This document shows positions 1 to 7,860 of a DNA stretch of 7,860 nt, in pieces. This stretch comes from a virus. Lineage: Duplodnaviria > Heunggongvirae > Uroviricota > Caudoviricetes. The position numbers and the translations under genes are program-made. How positions within the stretch are numbered: position 1 is the stretch's first letter; every line of letters begins with the position of its first letter. Location: the IMG/VR virus record IMGVR_UViG_3300029219_000192; one strand, 5' to 3'. A model generated the notes under the pieces. The model saw nothing but the letters and a program-made list of their open reading frames with translations, had not been told where the DNA came from and made no database searches.

Positions 1-77
1 TAAGCAGAGTTTTTGAAATGTAAGGCCTTTGAATAAGACAAAAGGCTGCCTCATCGCTAACTTTGCAACAGTGCCCT
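1..77. repeat. Left copy of a perfect 77-bp inverted repeat (partner at 7762-7838); may extend beyond the window edge
   Basis: Bases 1-77 are the exact reverse complement of 7762-7838, checked base by base; first mismatch is at 78 vs 7761. The copy runs to window position 1, so its outer limit is unknown. Confidence 0.95.
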
Positions 78-225
78 TTAAAGCACGTTTTAATCCAGGT
101 CGGCCTGTCCTTATTCCGCTTAATTTATCTTCAAATATTTGTTCACATCCTGCACAAACAAGAGCGTTTCGTTGCAGGTCTGTATTCTGGTCATTTGTTG
201 ATACCCTTACATAGCCAATCAGCAC
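76..225 (-). pseudogene. pin: Serine DNA invertase (Pin/Gin/Hin family), N-terminal 50-codon fragment fused to the inverted-repeat sequence
   Basis: Minus-strand translation from GTG at 223-225, verified codon by codon: MLIGYVRVSTNDQNTDLQRNALVCAGCEQIFEDKLSGIRTGRPGLKRALK. This matches the invertase N-terminus including the catalytic-serine motif VRVSTNDQ; GGGAG lies 7 nt upstream of the start. Homology stops at codon 50 (76-78), exactly at the repeat boundary; the frame then reads GTVAKLAMRQPFVLFKGLTFQKLCL with no stop before the window edge. The catalytic-domain remainder and C-terminal DNA-binding domain are absent. Confidence 0.85.
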
Positions 226-279
226 GCTGAATCTCCCGTCCAAAAGCACAAATCATGCCATGCAGGCCAGAAACCGCCA

Positions 280-305
280 TTATCTAAAACCTCGGTTTAC
301 AGGAA
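280..305. other. pix/gix-like 26-bp crossover site for a Gin-family invertase
   Basis: TTATCTAAAACC-TC-GGTTTACAGGAA at 280-305 fits the gix/hix-type site (two 12-bp inverted half-sites around a 2-bp core; consensus recalled from memory, about one mismatch). It lies between the pin fragment and the tail-fibre cassette, the expected position. No second convincing copy was found in the window. Confidence 0.7.
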
Positions 306-329
306 ACGGTAAACAGGGCCAGGAACGCC

Positions 330-1292
330 GTGCAAAAGAATGGCGATACCTTGTCCGGTGGGCTTACTTTTGAAAACGACTCAATCCTTGCCTGGATTAG
401 AAATACTGACTGGGCAAAGATTGGTTTTAAAAATAATGCCGACAGCGACACTGATTCATACATGTGGTTTGAAACAGGCGACAACGGCAATGAATATTTC
501 AAATGGAGAAGCCGCCAGAGCACCACAACAAAAGACCTGATGACTCTTAAATGGGATGCTTTGTCTGTCCTTGTTAAAGCCCTTTTCAGCAGTGAAGTAA
601 AAATATCGACAGTCAATGCACTGAGGATATTTAATTCATCTTTTGGTGCTATTTTTCGTCGTTCTGAAGAATGCCTGCATATCATCCCTACACGAGAGAA
701 TGAGGGAGAAAATGGTGATATAGGGCCACTACGCCCCTTTACGCTTAATCTCAGAACTGGTCGGATAAGCATGGGGCATGGTCTTGATGTTACAGGGGAT
801 ATATTTGCAAACCGTTTTGCAATTAACAGTAGTACCGGCATGTGGATTCATATGCGTGACCAGAATGTTATTTTGGGACGCAATGCGGTATCCACCGATG
901 GTGCGCAGGCATTACTTCGTCAGGACCACGCTGATCGCAAATTTATGATTGGTGGACTGGGGAATAAGCAATTTGGCATCTACATGATTAATAACTCAAG
1001 GACAGCCAATGGCACCGATGGTCAGGCGTACATGGACAACAATGGCAACTGGCTTTGCGGTGCGCAAGTTATTCCCGGCAATTATGGTAATTTTGACTCA
1101 CGTTATGTGAGAGATGTCCGACTTGGTACACGTGTTGTTCAGACTATGCAAAAAGGCGTGATGTATGAGAAATCAGGTCATGCAATTACGGGGCTTGGCA
1201 TTATCGGTGCAGTTGATGGCGATGATCCGGCAGTATTCAGACCAATACAAAAATACATCAATGGCACATGGTATAACGTCGTACAGGTGTAA
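330..1292 (+). CDS. Side tail fibre protein, C-terminal variable (receptor-binding) cassette; lacks the constant N-terminal part
   Basis: 320-aa ORF from a GTG. The N-terminal region (QKNGDTLSGGLTFENDSILAWIRNTDWAKIGFKNN...YMWFETGDNGNEYFKWR) is the conserved segment found just after the crossover site in Stf-type fibres. The frame is open from 288, just past a TAA at 285-287 inside the pin-proximal pix half-site. It is followed 3 nt later by tfa. No constant tail-fibre region lies upstream. Confidence 0.8.
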   Translation: MQKNGDTLSGGLTFENDSILAWIRNTDWAKIGFKNNADSDTDSYMWFETGDNGNEYFKWRSRQSTTTKDLMTLKWDALSVLVKALFSSEVKISTVNALRIFNSSFGAIFRRSEECLHIIPTRENEGENGDIGPLRPFTLNLRTGRISMGHGLDVTGDIFANRFAINSSTGMWIHMRDQNVILGRNAVSTDGAQALLRQDHADRKFMIGGLGNKQFGIYMINNSRTANGTDGQAYMDNNGNWLCGAQVIPGNYGNFDSRYVRDVRLGTRVVQTMQKGVMYEKSGHAITGLGIIGAVDGDDPAVFRPIQKYINGTWYNVVQV

Positions 1293-1295
1293 TTT

Positions 1296-1823
1296 ATGCA
1301 GCATTTAAAAAATATTAAGTCTGGAAATCCAAAAACAAAAGAACAATATCAGCTAACAAAGAATTTTGATGTTATCTGGTTATGGTCCGAAGACGGAAAA
1401 AACTGGTATGAGGAAGTGAAAAACTTTCAGCCAGACACAATAAAGATTGTTTACGATGCAAATAATATTATTGTCGCCATCACCAAAGATGCCTCCACGC
1501 TTAACCCTGAAGGTTATAGCGTCGTTGAGGTTCCAGATATTACAGCCAACCGCTGCGCTGATGATTCCAGTAAGTGGATGTTTAGGGACGGAGCTGTGGT
1601 TAAACGGATTTATACGGCAGACGAGCAACAACAACAGGCCGAATCACAAAAGGCCGCATTGCTTTCCGAAGCTGAATCAGTCATCCAACCGCTGGAACGC
1701 GCTGTCAGGCTGAATATGGCAACAGACGAGGAACGCACACGACTGGAAGCATGGGAACGCTACAGTGTTCTGGTCAGCCGTGTGGATACGGCAAATCCTG
1801 AATGGCCACAAAAACCAGAGTAA
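1296..1823 (+). CDS. tfa: Tail fibre assembly protein (lambda Tfa family)
   Basis: 175-aa ORF starting 3 nt after the tail-fibre stop. The C-terminal region ([34 protein letters not shown]) closely resembles the lambda Tfa C-terminus (EAW..Y.VL..RVDT...EWP). Confidence 0.85.
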
Positions 1824-1826
1824 AAA

Positions 1827-2258
1827 TTAAGGCCCGATACCGGGCAAAACATCCGTCAACAGTTCATCAATTTCTGTCGGGCCGAAGCCTGTCAGGGAGA
1901 CATCAAAATCAGCATTGATTAGGTCCGACAGCTCCATCCGCAACAGATCTTCATCCCAGCCAGCATTCATCGGTAGGCGATTATCTGCCAGGCGGTACGC
2001 CTTTTTCTGCTCATCCGTCAGGCCAGACAGAACAATGACCGGAACAGAATCCATTTTGAGCATTTCAGCCGCCATAACACGACCGTGACCCGCAATAATT
2101 TCGCCCTTTTCGTCAATCAGCACCGGATTAGTCCAGCCGAATTGCTTAATACTTTCTACCAGTTGTGCCACCTGCTCAGTACTGTGCGTCCTGGCGTTGT
2201 GCGCATACGGTGACAATTCTTGTAATGGGCGATAGACTATCTTTAATTTCTCGCTCAT
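1827..2258 (-). CDS. ParB-like nuclease-domain protein (ynaK-like by position next to trkG)
   Basis: 143-aa ORF with an AAGG RBS. The N-terminal region (PLQELSPYAHNARTHSTEQVAQLVESIKQFGWTNPVLI) resembles ParB/sulfiredoxin-type domains. It sits directly downstream of trkG, as ynaK does in the Rac prophage. Its stop codon is 3 nt from the convergent tfa stop. Confidence 0.6.
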   Translation of the reverse strand: MSEKLKIVYRPLQELSPYAHNARTHSTEQVAQLVESIKQFGWTNPVLIDEKGEIIAGHGRVMAAEMLKMDSVPVIVLSGLTDEQKKAYRLADNRLPMNAGWDEDLLRMELSDLINADFDVSLTGFGPTEIDELLTDVLPGIGP

Positions 2259-2395
2259 ACAGCCTTGCTTTATGAATAAAACGCACCCCAGCAGCCAGTG
2301 CTACTGGGGGCGGAGGTGTTGCTGGTAAAGTTAGGTATTGGATCAATGAGTGAGTCAATATAATATTAAACTCACAATTATAAATCAGCCATATA

Positions 2396-3853
2396 TTAGG
2401 AGCGCCAAAAAAAACCTGAAAACAATATAATAACAGGATAAATTTCAAGGCGACCAAGAATCATAGCTATGCACATTAAATATTTTGCAATGTCATTAAG
2501 CACTCCGAATGACGATGCAGTAGCCCCAAAACCTAATCCCATATTATTAATACATGCAGCCACTGTTGCAAATGATGTAAGAAAATCATATCCCATACCA
2601 TTTAACACCAGTATAAAAAACACCGTGAAGAGAGTATAAAGAAAAAAGAAACTCCATACAGACCTCATTACACGATCTGTAACTATCTTCCCTCCTACAT
2701 TTACACTCAACAACGCTCTGGGATGAGAAAGCTGATTTATCTCGTGTTTGCTTTGTTTGAAAAGTATAAGAAATCGAAGTGACTTAATTCCACCACAAGT
2801 TGAACCTATACATCCCCCAAAGAAACTTGACGACAGCAAAAACACTATCGTGTGCGTGGGCCAGTTTGCATAATCCTGCGTAGCTAAACCATTATCAGTG
2901 AGCATGGAGCTGGCAAGAAAAAACGAATGAATAAAACTTCCATGCAAGTCATACATACCTATATGCCAGACCTGGAAAGAGGTAACAATGATCACCCCTA
3001 AGGCTATTAACAGAAAGAAACGAAGTTCAATATCTCTGATTAAAGGTTTTATCGTTTTCCTGCTAATAACAATATACCAAAGAGTGAAGTTGAAAGCCGA
3101 TAGCAGGGAAAAAGAACCAGCCACCAGCTCAACCAAATAGTTATTAAAATATCCGATACTCTCGCTATGAGTTGAGAAACCACCAAGCGAAACTGTGGAA
3201 ATCCCGTGACAAATAGCATCAAACAAAGGCATTCCTGCAAGTCTATAACAGACAATACAAGCAATACCTAATAAAGAATAAGTTATCCACAGTGTCCGTG
3301 ACGTATCGGCCAGGCGGGGAGTGAGTTTGTCATCCTTAAATGGCCCCGGCATTTCTGACTGATAAAGCTTTGTACCACCAATACCCAATAATGGCAATAC
3401 AGCAACCGCCAGAACAATAACTCCTAAACCACCTATAAAATTTAACTGTGACCGATAGTACAAATATGCCCGAGGTAATGAACTAACATCATCAATTACA
3501 GTTGCTCCTGTTGTTGTTATTCCAGAAACCCCTTCAAACAGAGCATCAATGAACGTTAAATTAAGTTCTGAGTCAATCCATAAAGGGAATGCACTAATAA
3601 CAGAAAACAAAATCCAAAACATTACAATTATAATAAACCCATCACGGGTACGTAATTGAATGCCAGATTTCTTAGTTGTATACCACGCTCCGCCACCAAT
3701 GCAAAAAAATATAACGAAAGTTATAAAGAAAACGAACAGGCTTTTTTCTTTATAAAACAATGCTACAACCATTGGTGGCAACATTGAAAGACTATAGAGC
3801 CAAACCAGGAACCCACACATATGAGTAACAACTCTTACATGAGATGTATTCAT
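2396..3853 (-). CDS. trkG: Trk-system potassium uptake protein, TrkH/TrkG family membrane subunit (prophage-borne)
   Basis: Long, very hydrophobic ORF with repeated glycine-rich pore-loop-like segments (ITTTGATV, FIGGLGVIVL, STVSLGGFSTH, FGGCIGSTCGGIK). It is strikingly AT-rich compared with its neighbours and lies beside Rz/Rz1, as in Rac. The start is taken as the ATG at 3851-3853 (MNTSHVRV..., 485 aa); the ORF-track start at 3871 is a TTG. Confidence 0.85.
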   Translation of the reverse strand: MNTSHVRVVTHMCGFLVWLYSLSMLPPMVVALFYKEKSLFVFFITFVIFFCIGGGAWYTTKKSGIQLRTRDGFIIIVMFWILFSVISAFPLWIDSELNLTFIDALFEGVSGITTTGATVIDDVSSLPRAYLYYRSQLNFIGGLGVIVLAVAVLPLLGIGGTKLYQSEMPGPFKDDKLTPRLADTSRTLWITYSLLGIACIVCYRLAGMPLFDAICHGISTVSLGGFSTHSESIGYFNNYLVELVAGSFSLLSAFNFTLWYIVISRKTIKPLIRDIELRFFLLIALGVIIVTSFQVWHIGMYDLHGSFIHSFFLASSMLTDNGLATQDYANWPTHTIVFLLSSSFFGGCIGSTCGGIKSLRFLILFKQSKHEINQLSHPRALLSVNVGGKIVTDRVMRSVWSFFFLYTLFTVFFILVLNGMGYDFLTSFATVAACINNMGLGFGATASSFGVLNDIAKYLMCIAMILGRLEIYPVIILFSGFFWRS

Positions 3854-3990
3854 ATCTAAATATTCTTTCAATTATAACCACCTTGCTGCAATATTATGAT
3901 TATACTGTATAAAATTTAACTCCTCTTAGATCTTACTTCACTGTTCCTTATGAAACAATCATCAAAATGAATCATATTGTAGTTAAGATT

Positions 3991-4455
3991 TTACTTTAAA
4001 CACTGCTCGGTTATGTATTGCTGAGCACCTTCAAGTTGGGCCTGCATCATTACCAGTCGTTCCCGGAGGGTGAAATAATCCCGTTCAGCGGTGTCTGCCA
4101 GTCGGGGGGAGGCTGCATTATCCACGCCGGAGGCGGTGGTGGCTTCACGCACTGACTGACAGACTGCTTTGATGTGCAACCGACGACGACCAGCGGCAAC
4201 ATCATCACGCAGAGCATCATTTTCAGCTTTCGCATCAGCTAACTCCTTCGTGTATTTTGCATCGAGCGCAGCAACATCACGCTGACGCATCTGCATGTCA
4301 GTAATTGCCGCGTTCGCCAGCTTCAGTTCTCTGGCATTTTTGTCGCGCTGGGCTTTGTAGGTAATGGCGTTATCACGGTAATGATTAACAGCCCATGACA
4401 GGCAGACGATGATGCAGATAACCAGAGCGGAGATAATCGCGGTTACCCTGCTCAT
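3991..4455 (-). CDS. Rz: Rz i-spanin (inner-membrane lysis protein)
   Basis: Near-identical to lambda Rz along its length ([68 protein letters not shown]...). The start is taken as the ATG at 4453-4455, which overlaps the upstream endolysin-remnant stop as ATGA; the track start at 4467 is a GTG. Confidence 0.9.
4050..4235 (-). CDS. Rz1: Rz1 o-spanin (outer-membrane lipoprotein), embedded in Rz in the +1 frame
   Basis: 61-aa ORF wholly inside Rz. It has a lipoprotein signal with lipobox LVVVGC and a proline-rich region ([24 protein letters not shown]), matching lambda Rz1. Confidence 0.85.
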
Positions 4456-4676
4456 TGTTGCCCCCACAAACAGACCTCACGCTCAATCTCACGACGAGTC
4501 ATCAGGCCTTTCCATTGCTTACCGCCAGCGTATGCCCAGCGACGTAGCTGGTCACATGCGCCCTTGATATCGCCCTGGTTTATTTTGCGAAGAAGAGTAG
4601 ATGTTCTGAAATTGCCTGCGCCCACGTTATAGACGAACGAGTAAAGAGCGCCGCGCGTTGTTTCCGGTAGGTGCGA
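4452..4676 (-). pseudogene. Phage endolysin (lysozyme, R21/RrrD-like) 3' remnant: about the last 70 codons only
   Basis: Minus-strand frame ending at the TGA that overlaps the Rz start: ...[71 protein letters not shown]. This matches the C-terminus of lambdoid lysozymes (from memory). The frame is closed upstream by a TGA (plus 4677-4679) with no start codon; the N-terminal catalytic part and the holin gene are absent. Confidence 0.6.
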
Positions 4677-4794
4677 TCACTTTCGTCTACTCCGTTACAA
4701 AGCGAGGCTGGGTATTTCCCGGCCTTTCTGTTATCAGAAATCCCCTGAAAGCACAGCGGCTGGCTGAGGAGATAAATAATAAACGGGGGGCTGT

Positions 4795-4986
4795 ATGCAC
4801 AAAGCATCTCCTGTTGAGTTAAGAACGTGTATCGAGATGGCACATAGCCTCGCTCAAATTGGAGTCAGGTTTGTGCCAATACCAGTAGAAACAGACGAAG
4901 AATTTCATACGTTAGCCGCATCCCTTTCACAAAAGCTGGAAATGATGGTGGCGAAAGCAGAAGCAGATGAGAGAGACCAGGTATGA
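4795..4986 (+). CDS. Small early-region protein, YdfA-like (63 aa)
   Basis: ATG ORF with a G-rich RBS, MHKASPVELRTCIEMAHSLAQIGVRFVPIPVETDEEFHTLAASLSQKLEMMVAKAEADERDQV. Its stop overlaps the next start as ATGA. It resembles, from memory, the first gene of the ydfA-ydfB-ydfC trio of the Qin prophage. Confidence 0.5.
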   Translation: MHKASPVELRTCIEMAHSLAQIGVRFVPIPVETDEEFHTLAASLSQKLEMMVAKAEADERDQV

Positions 4987-5066
4987 CAACCACTGAATGC
5001 ATTTTTCTGGCAGCGGGCTTCATATTCTGTGTGCTTATGCTTGCCGACATGGGGCTTGTTCAATGA
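4983..5066 (+). CDS. Small hydrophobic peptide, YdfB-like (27 aa)
   Basis: MTTTECIFLAAGFIFCVLMLADMGLVQ, a single predicted transmembrane helix. ATGA overlaps with both neighbours suggest translational coupling. The alternative reading is that the next gene starts at 4997 in another frame (93-aa track ORF). Confidence 0.35.
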   Translation: MTTTECIFLAAGFIFCVLMLADMGLVQ

Positions 5067-5278
5067 CACCTCAGCAAGAAAACGCCCTTCGCAGCATTGC
5101 CCGTCAGGCTAATTCTGAAATCAAAAAAGCCAGACAGCAGTTTCCGGATAAAAACGTCGATGACATTTGCCGTAGCGTACTGAAGAAGCACCGCGAAACG
5201 GTAACGCTGATGGGATTCACACCGACTCATTTAAGCCTGGCAATCGGCATGTTAAACGGCGTCTTTAAGGAACGATGA
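5063..5278 (+). CDS. Small early-region protein, YdfC-like (71 aa)
   Basis: MTPQQENALRSIARQANSEIKKARQQFPDKNVDDICRSVLKKHRETVTLMGFTPTHLSLAIGMLNGVFKER. The start overlaps the upstream stop as ATGA. Same frame as the 93-aa track ORF (4997-5278), but the coupled start at 5063 is preferred. Confidence 0.5.
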   Translation: MTPQQENALRSIARQANSEIKKARQQFPDKNVDDICRSVLKKHRETVTLMGFTPTHLSLAIGMLNGVFKER

Positions 5279-5299
5279 ACATGAAAAGCAAAATTATCA

Positions 5300-5324
5300 G
5301 GGAGCTACAGGCTCCTTTTTTATT
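5300..5324 (+). terminator. Short GC hairpin plus T-tract (weak intrinsic terminator or small-RNA 3' end)
   Basis: GGAGC (5301-5305) pairs with GCTCC (5311-5315) around a 5-nt loop, followed by TTTTTTATT. The stem is only 5 bp, so confidence is low. Confidence 0.25.
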
Positions 5325-5376
5325 GCTCGCATTTACCCCCAAGCGTATTAACCAACAATTCAGGGATTAATGGAAG

Positions 5377-5598
5377 ATGGCAGACATCATTGATTCAGCA
5401 TCAGAAATTGAAGAATTACAGCGCAACACAGCAATAAAAATGCGCCGCCTGAACCACCAGGCTGTATCTGCCACTCATTGTTGTGAGTGTGGCGATCCCA
5501 TAGATGAGCTAAGACGCCTGGCCGTTCAGGGTTGTCGGACTTGTGCAAGTTGCCAGGAAGATCTGGAGCTTATCAGTAAACAGAGAGGTTCGAAGTGA
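5377..5598 (+). CDS. DksA/TraR-family C4-type zinc-finger protein (phage TraR-like)
   Basis: 73-aa ORF with four-cysteine motif ...HCCECGDPIDELRRLAVQGCRTCASCQ... Size and motif are typical of TraR-like proteins in lambdoid early regions. Confidence 0.8.
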   Translation: MADIIDSASEIEELQRNTAIKMRRLNHQAVSATHCCECGDPIDELRRLAVQGCRTCASCQEDLELISKQRGSK

Positions 5599-5846
5599 GC
5601 GTAATTCACTCTCAGGCACTGCGTGAAGCGGCAGAGCAGGCAATGCCTGACAACTGGGGATTTGACGCGGACCTTTTCCATGAGCTGGTAACACCATCGA
5701 TTGTGCTGACACTGCTGGATGAACGGGAAAGAAACCAGCAATACATCAAACGCCGCGACCAGGAGAACGAGGATATTGCGCTAACGGTGGGGAAACTGCG
5801 TGTTGAGCTGGAGACAGCAAAAATCAAAACTCAACGAGCAGCGTGA
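5595..5846 (+). CDS. Ead/Ea22-like early protein, N-terminal part; ORF closed by TGA but coding-like frame continues to 6008
   Basis: GTG start overlapping the TraR-like stop (GTGA). MSVIHSQALREAAEQAMPDNWGFDADLFHELVTPSIVLTLLDERERNQQYIKRRDQENEDIALTVGKLRVELETAKIKTQRAA resembles Ea22-family N-termini (from memory). After the TGA at 5844-5846 the same frame stays open for 53 more codons. Confidence 0.45.
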   Translation: MSVIHSQALREAAEQAMPDNWGFDADLFHELVTPSIVLTLLDERERNQQYIKRRDQENEDIALTVGKLRVELETAKIKTQRAA

Positions 5847-6144
5847 GTAGAAGGTGTTATCTCGGATGGAAGTAAGCGTATTGCTGAACTGGAGGCCTGG
5901 GTTGAATACACAAGAGCTGCATACGTAAGAGCAAAAGACAAGGGAGATTTGATCAGAGTTATTACCCGCCAACCAACGGGATTTTACGCTTACGTACCAT
6001 GTAATTAGGAATCCTTGAAGTGGCAGCCTAACTGCGGATACACTGAAATGGCGATTTGGTAACATGTTTCGCACAAGGCTGTTACTACACTTAGAGATAA
6101 TCAGCCATGATTAAACGCTTTGTAAAAAGTAAAAGGAAATTACA

Positions 6145-6759
6145 ATGAAAAAATCAATACTAATTTTAGGGCTTACGTTAATTGTCTCATCTCAAATACC
6201 ATCGGCAATGGCAAAAAATGAATCAAAACTATGGGTTGTTGTTGATCGAACGGAAAGACATACCTGCCCTTCAAGTAAATGTGGAGTGGCTGGGAAACTA
6301 TTTTTCAGGGAAGGCGTAGATTTTCTAGAAAAAAAAGGTGAATGGGTTCGTATAACTGAGCCATATTCAGCCTCATGTGTTGGAGGGGAAAGCGAATATA
6401 TTAAAGAAGGTAATAAATCCTGCACAAGAAAAAATGGAATCGTTAATGGCAAGTTTTCAGAATGGGTTAAACTTAGTGATCTTAGCAGTGAAAGGCCATC
6501 AGATCCTGCTGAAAATGCGAGCGGAGATGATACTTTAATCAAAGGATCTGATGACTACCGTATATACAAAAAAGAGTTTTCTTCGGCAGCTAGGAAGTTA
6601 ATAAATGAAGGGGTCTGCACGGAAAGCGATTTTAAGGAAATCGGAGGGTGGATGGCATCAAGCAATAAGGGTGAAAACATCTATTTCACATATTGCGGAG
6701 GAATGACGTTGTCGAACAGAATATACCTAGATGTTAAAAGTGGAAAGACTTTTAGATAA
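6145..6759 (+). CDS. Secreted (Sec signal peptide) cysteine-containing protein of unknown function; AT-rich cargo gene
   Basis: 204-aa ORF with an AAGGAA RBS. N-terminal MKKSILILGLTLIVSSQIPSAMA-KNE is a typical signal peptide with an AxA cleavage site and no lipobox. Several Cys lie in the mature part. Composition is visibly AT-rich compared with flanking genes, and a strong terminator follows. Confidence 0.7.
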   Translation: MKKSILILGLTLIVSSQIPSAMAKNESKLWVVVDRTERHTCPSSKCGVAGKLFFREGVDFLEKKGEWVRITEPYSASCVGGESEYIKEGNKSCTRKNGIVNGKFSEWVKLSDLSSERPSDPAENASGDDTLIKGSDDYRIYKKEFSSAARKLINEGVCTESDFKEIGGWMASSNKGENIYFTYCGGMTLSNRIYLDVKSGKTFR

Positions 6760-6829
6760 TATGATATTACCAATGACAGTATTGATTTAATGCCTCCATA
6801 GAATTATCTCTAGGAAGTAGGTATAAGAA

Positions 6830-6866
6830 AAGCCCGCACAATGAGCTGCTGCGGGCTTTGTGTTAT
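6830..6866 (+). terminator. Rho-independent terminator downstream of the secreted-protein gene
   Basis: AAGCCCGCA (6830-6838) pairs with TGCGGGCTT (6850-6858) around an 11-nt loop, followed by TTTGTGTTATT. Confidence 0.7.
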
Positions 6867-6912
6867 TCGCCATATTTTATGAAGCAAATACGACACTATA
6901 GATAATTAAGCG

Positions 6913-7052
6913 TTGCTGGTTGTCGATTCCTCAATCACTCCTGTTGATGGCTCTCTTCTTGTATGTGCCATTGAAGGGGAATATCGCGTAAAAAGATACC
7001 GGAAGTATCCGCGCCGCCATGATTGTCTTTCTCCTGATGCAGGAAAAGCAGA
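6913..7052 (+). pseudogene. S24 peptidase (LexA/UmuD/cI-type) C-terminal-domain remnant
   Basis: LVVDSSITPVDGSLLVCAIEGEYRVKRY resembles the conserved core of the S24 autoproteolytic domain (compare UmuD LLIVDSAIT...VIAAVDGEFTVKKL). There is a stop codon 6 nt upstream of 6913, no catalytic-Ser region, and the downstream translation is not protein-like. The homologous core is roughly 6913-7000. Confidence 0.4.
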
Positions 7053-7391
7053 ATGGCTAAATCAGCAACAGAGCACAAAGCCGATCAGAGAGCCAAGCAA
7101 GCATCATCCGGTATGCGTAAGCTGGAGCTTGTACTTGATGCTCAGGAAATTGAAATGCTGGAGCGTAACTGTGCCACGCGTCGCTTCAGGCGTGCGCCTT
7201 GCGAGTTTGGTGAGTACATCGCGTTACTGAGCCGCCAGGATGATGCACGTGTGCGCTGGCGTATAAAATCGATCAGCAGAAAACGGTGCGGTAAGTGCGG
7301 CGAGAGAGTTCCTGTTAATTCATGCCCGTGTAATGGTGACTCACAATGCTGGGTGACCAAAGGCTGGCACGAAACAAAATTAATGATATAA
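7053..7391 (+). CDS. Hypothetical protein with C-terminal Cys cluster (putative zinc ribbon)
   Basis: 112-aa ATG ORF with an AGGA RBS. C-terminal C-x2-C-x8-C-x-C-x5-C (RCGKCGERVPVNSCPCNGDSQCW). No family recognised. Confidence 0.6.
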   Translation: MAKSATEHKADQRAKQASSGMRKLELVLDAQEIEMLERNCATRRFRRAPCEFGEYIALLSRQDDARVRWRIKSISRKRCGKCGERVPVNSCPCNGDSQCWVTKGWHETKLMI

Positions 7392-7397
7392 ATCTCT

Positions 7398-7409
7398 GTG
7401 ACATGTCAC
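7398..7409. promoter_or_regulatory. Perfect 12-bp palindrome GTGACATGTCAC between the two module genes (candidate protein-binding site)
   Basis: Exact dyad symmetry at 7398-7409, in the 28-bp gap immediately upstream of the RBS (GGAGG) of the 7420 gene. Confidence 0.3.
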
Positions 7410-7419
7410 GGAGGCGGCA

Positions 7420-7782
7420 ATGAAATTAGACCAGCAATATCTAAAAGATCTACTTATCGCATTCGAAAAAACTCGTGGCCCTGACACGATGCTTAGTGAA
7501 CTAGAGGATAATGGCTTTAATAGATATGACCAAGATTTTATTTTCCATATGCGATTATTATGTGACTACGAATTAATAGTCAGGGTTGATGGAAAACCTG
7601 GGTTCGGTCATATATTGTCCAAAGCGTTAGGGGAAGGTGTTGGATATAGTTGGATCGAAGTACCACTGAGGTTGACAGCAAGAGGGCATGATTTTATTGC
7701 TGACTTACGTCAAAAGGATGTCTGGCAAGCTATAAAAACAAACTTTAAGGATGAGGGAATTAGGGCACTGTTGCAAAGTTAG
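7420..7782 (+). CDS. Hypothetical protein (120 aa), AT-rich; its last 6 codons lie inside the right inverted repeat
   Basis: ATG ORF with a GGAGG RBS 7 nt upstream. Protein-like composition, no recognised motif. Visibly AT-rich. It ends ...EGIRALLQS* with the stop at 7780-7782. Confidence 0.65.
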   Translation: MKLDQQYLKDLLIAFEKTRGPDTMLSELEDNGFNRYDQDFIFHMRLLCDYELIVRVDGKPGFGHILSKALGEGVGYSWIEVPLRLTARGHDFIADLRQKDVWQAIKTNFKDEGIRALLQS

Positions 7783-7838
7783 CGATGAGGCAGCCTTTTG
7801 TCTTATTCAAAGGCCTTACATTTCAAAAACTCTGCTTA
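7762..7838. repeat. Right copy of the perfect 77-bp inverted repeat
   Basis: Exact reverse complement of 1-77. Covers the last 6 codons and stop of the 7420-7782 ORF plus 56 bp downstream. Confidence 0.95.
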
Positions 7839-7860
7839 CCAGGCGCATTTCGCCCAGGGG

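What the first reader, a model, noticed from the sequence alone, without database searches (positions are those of the whole stretch)
76..1823. Degenerate Pin-type host-range switch: one pix site, truncated pin, and a silent tail-fibre cassette
A gix/pix-like 26-bp site (280-305) sits between a 50-codon pin fragment and a tail-fibre variable cassette with tfa, the layout of the silent copy next to the invertase in e14/Mu/P1-type systems. In Gin-family systems the recombinational enhancer lies in the 5' part of the invertase gene, so it may be retained here. No second pix site and no constant tail-fibre region are present, and pin cannot be functional. The cassette frame is closed by TAA (285-287) in the pin-proximal half-site. 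The site could still recombine if an intact invertase from another prophage acts in trans.
Basis: partly seen in the sequence, partly recalled or inferred. Interest (0 to 1): 0.55.

Follow-up and report, generated by a model that had tools for sequence, protein, structure and literature searches.

The report
Decayed Mu-type tail-fibre inversion switch
This is the dead remnant of a well-known phage "host-range switch" (one Gin-type crossover site, the first 50 codons of the invertase gene, and one unexpressed tail-fibre cassette), stranded in a broken prophage fragment bounded by IS26 copies; it is real but ordinary.

Summary
Bases 280-305 are a genuine invertase crossover site, 26/26 identical to the gin-proximal gix of phage SfMu and 25/26 to Mu gixL/gixR. 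Bases 225-76 (minus strand) are the first 50 codons of an invertase. Bases 288-1292 and 1296-1823 are an intact Sv/U-type tail-fibre tip plus chaperone in the silent position.

Two refinements. The relic is Gin/gix (Mu) type, not e14 Pin/pix type. The invertase is cut at base 75/76 by an IS26 end; a second, inverted IS26 end closes the window at 7764.

Fuller copies of the same lambdoid prophage at attLambda in E. coli carry both gix sites and the constant fibre part. Their gin is already truncated at codon 64. They occur in both orientations (about 136 and 126 of 5,426 genomes), with an exact exchange within the site. So the parent switch probably flipped through invertases supplied in trans, which is a known phenomenon.

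In the window's lineage, deletions then removed the partner site, so the remaining site is an orphan. The closest chromosomes show no second gix and no gin/pinE-like gene.

Verdict: a decayed member of a known system, low interest.

The parts
1..75 (+). Right-hand end of an IS26 copy. The tnp26 stop is at 21-23 and the terminal inverted repeat TTTGCAACAGTGCC is at 62-75.
   Evidence: Identical to S43 DNA annotated 'IS6-like element IS26 family transposase', whose CDS ends at window 23. It forms a 77-nt perfect inverted repeat with 7762-7838.
76..225 (-). gin' : the first 50 codons of a Gin-type serine invertase (GTG start at 225). It is cut by IS26 at 75/76 and reads on into IS26.
   Evidence: Pfam Resolvase E 6.5e-12, profile 2-57 of 145. 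47/49 aa identical to Mu and SfMu Gin, 39/49 to PinE, 36/49 to Cin. 146/150 nt identical to Mu gin.
136..207 (-). Enhancer-equivalent stretch (gin nt 19-90), homologous to the annotated enhancer of P1 cin.
   Evidence: The P1 record annotates the enhancer at cin nt 19-90. The window aligns to it without gaps. There are 0 mismatches to Mu gin over nt 1-112. Fis sites lie inside the gin coding region (PMC3378877). Fis binding was not tested.
226..279 (-). 54-bp spacer between the crossover site and the gin start, carrying the ribosome-binding site.
   Evidence: Collinear with the Mu and SfMu gixR-gin spacer. Mu has 67 bp from the G boundary to the gin start.
280..305 (.). Orphan gix crossover site: half-site 280-291 (gin-proximal), core TC 292-293, half-site 294-305 (cassette side).
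   Evidence: 26/26 to SfMu, 25/26 to Mu gixL/gixR. No chance matches in shuffles. In fuller relatives the exchange maps to site positions 10-34.
288..1292 (+). Silent variable tail-fibre C-terminus (Sv type, as in Mu G(+)). It is an open frame with no constant N-terminal part.
   Evidence: 84% aa identity to the SfMu gin-proximal cassette, 74% to P1 S 655-987, 70% to Mu S 169-504. Pfam Gp34_trimer. RefSeq calls it 'phage tail protein, missing N-terminus'.
1296..1823 (+). Intact tail-fibre assembly chaperone (U type).
   Evidence: Caudo_TAP E 4.8e-37. 97% aa identity to P1 U and 93% to Mu U, against 56% to Mu U'.
1832..1845 (.). Hybrid hairpin and deletion joint at the former centre of the invertible segment. 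The crossover falls in the short homology TA(C/G)CGGGC (1838-1845).
   Evidence: Homology to Mu, SfMu and P1 ends at 1845. Relative PK8568 keeps about 0.83 kb here, including 369 bp of the second chaperone gene. Terminator-like stem.
1827..2258 (-). Truncated ParB_N/methyltransferase gene (ynaK-like), now ending at the deletion joint. It marks the other side of the deletion that removed the partner site.
   Evidence: Pfam ParB_N. PADLOC MTase_II profile positions 12-145 of 436. K-12 Rac homology starts at window 2005.
7764..7860 (-). Second IS26 end, inverted relative to the first. It cuts the DUF2513 gene.
   Evidence: Reverse complement of 1-75. DUF2513 is intact in relatives.

Best explanation
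Bases 76-1845 are the gin-proximal half of a Mu-type (Gin/gix) invertible tail-fibre segment. It once belonged to a lambdoid prophage integrated at attLambda (ybhB/ybhC) of E. coli.

In the working system the invertase, helped by Fis bound to the enhancer inside the 5' end of gin, exchanges DNA at the 2-bp core of two inverted 26-bp gix sites. That swaps which of two C-terminal fibre tips, each with its chaperone, is fused to the constant part of the side tail fibre gene.

The decay went in four steps.
1. gin was truncated at codon 64 by a deletion that fused it to the 3' end of a tfa gene.
2. The two-site segment nevertheless kept flipping, most likely through related invertases made by other prophages.
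3. In one lineage, frozen with this cassette in the silent position, deletions running from a ParB-methyltransferase gene into the segment removed the constant fibre part, the partner gix and the other cassette.
4. IS26 then cut gin' down to 50 codons and captured a 7.7-kb prophage piece that also circulates on plasmids.

What is left cannot invert. There is no invertase and only one site. Wild-type Gin-family enzymes act only on two sites on the same supercoiled molecule. The site and enhancer sequences are intact, but they are functionally orphaned.
For: Shown directly:
- Site identity to SfMu and Mu gix.
- The invertase stub is Gin-like and only 50 codons long.
- The cassette and chaperone are homologous to Mu, P1 and SfMu Sv/U at 70-97% aa and 86-92% nt.
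- The order and orientation equal SfMu gin-gix-Sv'-U'.
- IS26 lies at 1-75 and at 7764-7860.
- Relatives without IS26 have a 64-codon gin' joined to a tfa 3' fragment next to ybhB.

Fuller copies:
- L019 carries J-lom-stf(947 aa)-U, then U'-Sv'-gix-gin'. L012, L014 and L015 carry the same 3,053-bp segment (4 mismatches) with the flanks swapped.
- In both, the outer half-sites stay with their flanks. The exchange interval is site positions 10-34.
- The gin' truncation flank is the same in both: the 428-nt junction query is 99.8-100% identical to each, and the two flanks differ at 2 of 485 nt.

Population counts among 5,426 genomes:
- gin'-gix-Sv2 junction in 136 genomes.
- Sc-gix-Sv2 junction in 126 genomes.
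- The gin' truncation joint in 536 genomes.

Deletion intermediate: PK8568.

Orphan status: S43, AH04, AH02 and CT01 each have one gix region and one gin-like 5' region per chromosome.

Mechanistic rule: intramolecular inversion is the exclusive outcome, and the enzyme is inactive without the Fis/enhancer and supercoiling (PMC3798978).

Precedent for action in trans: PinQ, PinR and PinE invert the e14 segment, and PinE inverts Mu G (PMC12529663).
Against: - The window's exact source replicon is not in the collections searched. No record shares the right-hand IS26 joint. A partner gix elsewhere on that replicon therefore cannot be excluded.
- The DNA search for helper invertases would miss PinR/PinQ-type genes, which share no detectable nucleotide similarity with this stub. 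Plasmids of the closest strains were not examined.
- That flipping of the parent happened after the gin truncation is an inference from the shared truncation joint. Transfer of the flank between strains by homologous recombination is not excluded.
- Fis binding and site competence were not tested experimentally.
Confidence: 0.9

Rival explanations
1. It is an e14-type Pin/pix relic, as the finding's title says: a remnant of the P segment system.
For: Pin, Gin, Cin and Hin are homologous and functionally interchangeable (PMC12529663). The layout (silent cassette, site, 5' end of invertase) also equals e14. pinE matches window 116-261 at 78% nt.
Against: The stub is 47/49 aa identical to Gin against 39/49 to PinE, and 146/150 nt to Mu gin against 107/150 to pinE. 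The two e14 sites differ from Mu gix at 8-9 of 26 positions, while the window's site differs at 1. The cassette has no detectable nucleotide match to the e14 stfE/tfaE region.
Confidence: 0.04
2. The site is still a live recombination target. An invertase supplied in trans (Gin, Cin, Pin, PinQ/R from a prophage, P1-like plasmid or infecting phage) recombines it with a gix-type site elsewhere. The result would be large inversions, deletions or cointegrates, or the donation of its cassette.
For: The site and the enhancer-equivalent sequence are undamaged. The two-site parent is found in both orientations despite its truncated gin. Inversion in trans is documented. Some E. coli that carry the relic have 2-4 gix-like regions per chromosome.
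Against: There is no partner in the window or in the four closest chromosomes or the plasmids listed, each with 1 place per record. Wild-type invertases give only intramolecular inversion in a supercoiled invertasome. All 52 records that hold at least 80% of bases 1-2400 are reported as single or near-collinear places with the same gene order. No rearranged junction was seen in the 15 related loci read that carry the site.
Confidence: 0.05
3. The gin-gix-Sv'-U' block is the right end of a Mu-like prophage that transposed into a Rac-like/lambdoid prophage and was then mostly deleted.
For: Nucleotide identity of 86-92% to SfMu, Mu and D108 extends through the non-coding gix-gin spacer. The gin-proximal gix is identical to that of SfMu.
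Against: Fuller copies show the segment as the C-terminal part of a lambdoid side tail fibre gene. That gene is 947 aa with a phage_tail_N domain and lies directly after J and lom, with no other Mu genes. The Sc-proximal half-site differs from that of Mu.
Confidence: 0.03
4. Chance resemblance or an assembly chimera.
For: None.
Against: No shuffle gave a match. The same joints occur in several independent complete genomes and plasmids.
Confidence: 0.01

Closest known systems
Phage Mu / SfMu G segment with Gin and gix
   Same: Same order and orientation: gin 5' end, about 60-bp spacer, gix, then Sv and U on the opposite strand. The site is 25-26/26 identical. gin nt 1-112 are identical to Mu. 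The cassette is of the Mu G(+) S/U type.
   Different: Only 50 codons of gin remain. There is one site, one cassette and no constant S part. The parent element is a lambdoid side-tail-fibre gene, not a Mu fibre.
e14 P segment with PinE (E. coli K-12)
   Same: A cryptic-prophage relic of an invertible fibre segment with the invertase next to the silent cassette.
   Different: e14 keeps both sites and an intact pinE. Its sites and invertase are clearly more distant from the window than those of Mu.
P1/P7 C segment with Cin and cix
   Same: Homologous Sv/U cassettes: 97% aa for U, and 88% nt over the cassette. The enhancer is annotated inside the 5' part of the invertase gene.
   Different: In P1 the 3' end of cin abuts cixL, so the enhancer lies about 0.5 kb from the site. 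The cix sites differ from the window's site at 6 or more positions.
Inversion in trans by invertases of other cryptic prophages (PinQ/PinR on e14; PinE on Mu G; Fin on the Salmonella H segment)
   Same: This explains how the two-site parent with a truncated gin can exist in both orientations.
   Different: Those targets keep two sites. The window keeps one. No helper was identified here.
IS26-bounded segments (pseudo-compound transposons) on resistance plasmids
   Same: Two IS26 ends bracket 76-7763. The same prophage piece, with other IS26 joints in gin' (alignment starting at window base 116 or 159), is on IncF and other plasmids of Escherichia, Klebsiella, Enterobacter and Citrobacter.
   Different: The two copies are inverted. 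No 8-bp target duplication links the two joints (CTTTAAAG against GGAATTAG, read). The cargo is prophage debris plus trkG, not a resistance gene.

Membership tests
Gin/Hin/Cin/Pin Fis-dependent DNA inversion systems | A complete serine invertase (catalytic domain with Ser9, E-helix, C-terminal HTH), about 185-195 aa | tested here: not met
   Only residues 1-50 remain, then IS26. Relatives have 64 residues.
Gin/Hin/Cin/Pin Fis-dependent DNA inversion systems | A 26-bp crossover site made of two imperfect inverted 12-bp half-sites around a 2-bp core, matching a known gix/cix/pix/hix site | tested here: met
   26/26 to SfMu gix, 25/26 to Mu gixL/gixR, none in 200 shuffles.
Gin/Hin/Cin/Pin Fis-dependent DNA inversion systems | Two sites in inverted orientation on the same molecule | tested here: not met
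   There is a single site in the window at up to 6 mismatches, and a single gix region in the closest chromosomes and plasmids. The feature is met in the parent forms L012 and L019.
Gin/Hin/Cin/Pin Fis-dependent DNA inversion systems | A recombinational enhancer with Fis sites in cis, inside the 5' part of the invertase gene | tested here: inconclusive
   The sequence is retained: window 136-207 equals gin nt 19-90, the homologue of the P1-annotated enhancer, and is identical to Mu gin. Fis binding and activity are not testable with these tools.
Gin/Hin/Cin/Pin Fis-dependent DNA inversion systems | An invertible segment with two alternative fibre C-termini plus chaperones, and a constant N-terminal fibre part outside it | tested here: not met
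   One cassette only. Homology ends at 1845, the old centre of the segment. No constant part is present.
Gin/gix subtype (Mu-like) versus Pin/pix subtype (e14) | Invertase and site closer to Mu than to e14 | tested here: met
   47/49 against 39/49 aa; 146/150 against 107/150 nt; site 1 against 8-9 mismatches to Mu gix.
IS26-bounded mobile segment | IS26 terminal inverted repeats at both boundaries | tested here: met
   GGCACTGTTGCAAA ends lie at 62-75 (reverse complement) and 7764-7777. The arms are 77 nt and perfectly complementary. The transposase is annotated in S43.
IS26-bounded mobile segment | Both full IS26 copies, and evidence that the unit moves as one piece | tested here: inconclusive
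   Only 75 and 97 nt of the two copies are in the window. No record shares both joints. The cargo is found on many plasmids with different joints.

The most novel reading that the evidence does not exclude
The orphan gix together with its intact Fis enhancer, now carried between IS26 copies and present on conjugative plasmids of several enterobacterial genera, might still be used. Gin/Cin/Pin-type invertases of incoming Mu-like or P1-like phages, or of resident prophages, could fuse replicons, invert chromosome segments, or hand the silent Sv/U cassette to a phage fibre gene. That would make such relics a mobile reservoir of host-range cassettes.
Probability: 0.04. Interest if true: 0.45.

Novelty: already known. 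Interest (0 to 1): 0.15.

Why it matters
It matters mainly for annotation. The three partial or 'hypothetical' features at this locus, present in hundreds of E. coli genomes and on plasmids, can be named as one decayed Gin/gix tail-fibre switch.

The by-product is a little more interesting. The two-site parent has a truncated gin in about 10% of complete E. coli genomes, yet it occurs in both orientations at similar frequency. This is a natural population-scale example of an invertase-less segment flipped by invertases from elsewhere. It is in line with classical gin complementation by Pin and with the 2025 PinQ/PinR work. It opens no new question.

Tried and rejected
1. I looked for the published coordinates of the Mu enhancer (sis). 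Two papers were not held. I used the P1 GenBank enhancer annotation and the statement that the Fis sites lie within gin instead.

2. I tried to identify the window's source. No E. coli genome or PLSDB plasmid has both IS26 joints. I first misread the '116-7860' hits as sharing the right-hand joint. One search showed that the second aligned piece is the left-hand IS26 in the other orientation.

3. The e14 pix label was rejected.

4. PinR as the source of the stub was rejected. It shows no similarity in ungapped register, and Rac gives no nucleotide match outside ynaK/trkG.

5. The idea of a Mu prophage inserted into Rac was rejected after one search showed the segment inside a lambdoid stf gene.

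6. The promoter scan found nothing near the site above shuffle expectation.

7. The PADLOC scan of the cassette and neighbouring ORFs gave only a weak chaperone hit and the truncated methyltransferase.

8. I did not manage a genome-wide protein-level search for helper invertases in the closest strains.

Full report
What is in the sequence

The window opens with 75 bases of IS26: the end of tnp26 and the terminal repeat GGCACTGTTGCAAA in reverse complement at 62-75. It closes with the same IS26 end in the opposite orientation from 7764. The two arms are perfectly complementary.

Directly against the left IS26, on the minus strand, lies an invertase stub. It runs from GTG at 225 down to 76, exactly 50 codons, and then reads on into IS26. 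It hits Pfam Resolvase over profile positions 2-57 of 145.

After a 54-bp spacer comes TTATCTAAAACC-TC-GGTTTACAGGAA at 280-305. On the plus strand there follow an open frame from 288 to 1292, with a fibre trimerisation domain, and a complete 175-aa tail-fibre assembly chaperone at 1296-1823. Mu has CAA there and reads ..FIQ|NLGLQETV.. across the site.

Is the site real?

The 26-mer occurs once in the window even at 6 mismatches, and no shuffle produced a match at 3 or fewer. It is identical to the gin-proximal gix of Shigella phage SfMu and differs at one base from both gix sites of Mu. By contrast, the e14 pix sites differ from Mu gix at 8-9 positions and the P1 cix sites at 5-7. This is a bona fide crossover site of the gix subtype.

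Which invertase?

The 50 residues are 47/49 identical to Gin of Mu and SfMu, 39/49 to PinE and 36/49 to Cin. They are unrelated in register to PinR. At the DNA level, 146 of 150 bases equal Mu gin, and bases 1-112 are identical.

The P1 record annotates the Cin enhancer at cin nt 19-90. The window aligns to cin without gaps. The equivalent stretch is therefore window 207-136, and it is untouched. The Mu Fis sites are reported to lie inside the gin coding region (PMC3378877). Fis binding could not be tested.

The cassette

Bases 76-1845 match SfMu over gin-gix-Sv'-U' in the same order and orientation.

At the protein level the fibre tip is 84% identical to the SfMu gin-proximal tip, 74% to P1 S and 70% to Mu S residues 169-504. 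The chaperone is 97% identical to P1 U and 93% to Mu U, but only 56% to U'. It is therefore the Mu G(+) type S/U cassette, sitting in the silent position.

The layout equals Mu and e14. In P1 the 3' end of cin abuts cixL, so P1 is not an example of this layout.

Where it comes from, and how it decayed

In E. coli chromosomes the same DNA belongs to a defective lambdoid prophage at attLambda, between ybhB and ybhC. In one strain it lies at the Rac position, 400 bp from an intact pinR.

In copies without IS26, gin is already truncated. A 64-codon ORF is joined to the last roughly 100 bp of a tfa gene. That joint is present in 536 of 5,426 complete genomes.

Homology to the Mu-type segment stops at 1845, the old centre of the segment. 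From 1838 the window continues into a truncated ParB_N/methyltransferase gene (ynaK-like) and trkG. Strain PK8568 preserves an intermediate that still has 369 bp of the second chaperone gene. The window lacks a further 0.83 kb, lost across the short homology TA(C/G)CGGGC.

These deletions removed the constant fibre part, the partner site and the other cassette. Finally IS26 cut gin' to 50 codons. In other plasmids the alignment to gin' begins at window base 116 or 159, which suggests repeated IS26-mediated erosion.

The two-site parent

Looking up the exact chaperone protein found fuller copies.

In L019 (strain MB52) the order is J, lom, a 947-aa side tail fibre gene, U, then U', Sv', gix and gin' (64 codons). 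In L012, L014 and L015 the same 3,053-bp segment (4 mismatches) lies the other way round between the same flanks. There the window-type tip is fused to the constant part.

In both arrangements the outer half-sites stay put: TTATCGAATACC on the fibre side and TTATCTAAAACC on the gin side. The exchange must have occurred between site positions 10 and 34, an interval of 25 bp that contains the core. The gin' truncation flank is the same in both arrangements: the 428-nt junction query is 99.8-100% identical to each, and the two flanks differ at 2 of 485 nt.

The junction typical of one orientation occurs in 136 genomes and that of the other in 126.

The simplest reading is that the segment went on flipping after its own invertase was destroyed, using invertases made elsewhere in the cell. 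This step is inferred. It matches established knowledge: PinE inverts the Mu G segment, and PinQ and PinR invert the e14 segment (PMC12529663).

Can the window's site still do anything?

Wild-type enzymes of this family are inactive without the Fis-bound enhancer and supercoiling, and they give intramolecular inversion only (PMC3798978). So a lone site has nothing to react with.

The four chromosomes that share the window's IS26/gin joint (S43, AH04, AH02, CT01) contain one gix region and one gin/pinE-like 5' region each. The plasmids listed also have one gix region.

Three caveats apply. PinR/PinQ-type genes are invisible to that DNA search. Plasmids of those strains were not checked. The window's own replicon is not in the collections searched.

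Comparison and verdict

Every part has a direct counterpart in the Mu/SfMu Gin-gix system. The element fails the membership features that require completeness (invertase, second site, constant fibre part), and it meets those that depend on sequence identity (site, enhancer region, cassette type). It is a decayed member of a known system. RefSeq already annotates its pieces as partial recombinase, partial phage tail protein and tail fibre assembly protein.

The label should be Gin/gix rather than Pin/pix, the cause of truncation is IS26, and the speculative trans activity applies to the parent rather than to this copy. Interest is low.

Noticed in passing
window 1-75 and 7764-7860 (cargo 76-7763): The whole window is a 7.7-kb piece of a defective lambdoid prophage (gin', fibre cassette, ynaK', trkG, Rz/Rz1, rrrD', ea-region genes, DUF2513') bracketed by two inverted IS26 ends. 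The same cargo, with other IS26 joints, sits on IncF and other plasmids of Escherichia, Klebsiella, Enterobacter and Citrobacter. No record searched has the right-hand joint 7763/7764.
   Followed up: partly
L012/L014/L015 versus L019 (gix sites at 6985-7010 and 10038-10063 in each locus): The two-site parent of this relic has its gin truncated at codon 64, yet it occurs in both orientations. The two characteristic junctions are in 136 and 126 genomes, and the truncation joint is in 536 of 5,426. The exchange is confined to 25 bp around the gix core. This implies inversion by invertases supplied in trans.
   Followed up: partly
L001 (E. coli S43 chromosome) 1-12075: In S43 the DNA to the left of the IS26 that cuts gin' is plasmid-type (parM, ParA/ParB, a Tn3-family transposase fragment). 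To the right the prophage runs on to xis, int and ybhC. This looks like an IS26-mediated fusion of plasmid DNA into the chromosome at the relic.
   Followed up: no
L003 (E. coli PK8568) 7148-8233: At the Rac position the same gin'-gix relic lies about 400 bp from an intact pinR, a family reported to invert the e14 segment. There is no second gix within 19 kb.
   Followed up: partly
window 1827-2258 (minus strand): The 143-aa 'ParB/Srx' ORF is the N-terminal third of a ParB_N-fused DNA methyltransferase (PADLOC MTase_II profile 12-145 of 436). Its reading frame now ends at the deletion joint, 3 bp from the chaperone stop codon. K-12 ynaK is a shorter remnant of the same gene.
   Followed up: partly
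window 4452-4670 and 4658-4822: A lysozyme gene fragment (rrrD, N-terminus missing) overlaps the start of a DUF1317 gene on the other strand. This marks another internal deletion, one that joined the lysis region to the lambda-like early-left (ea) region.
   Followed up: no
window 6145-6759 (plus strand): A 204-aa ORF with a signal-peptide-like N-terminus (MKKSILILGLTLIVSSQIPSAMA) has no Pfam or PADLOC match. It is conserved in all relatives and may be a prophage accessory gene.
   Followed up: partly
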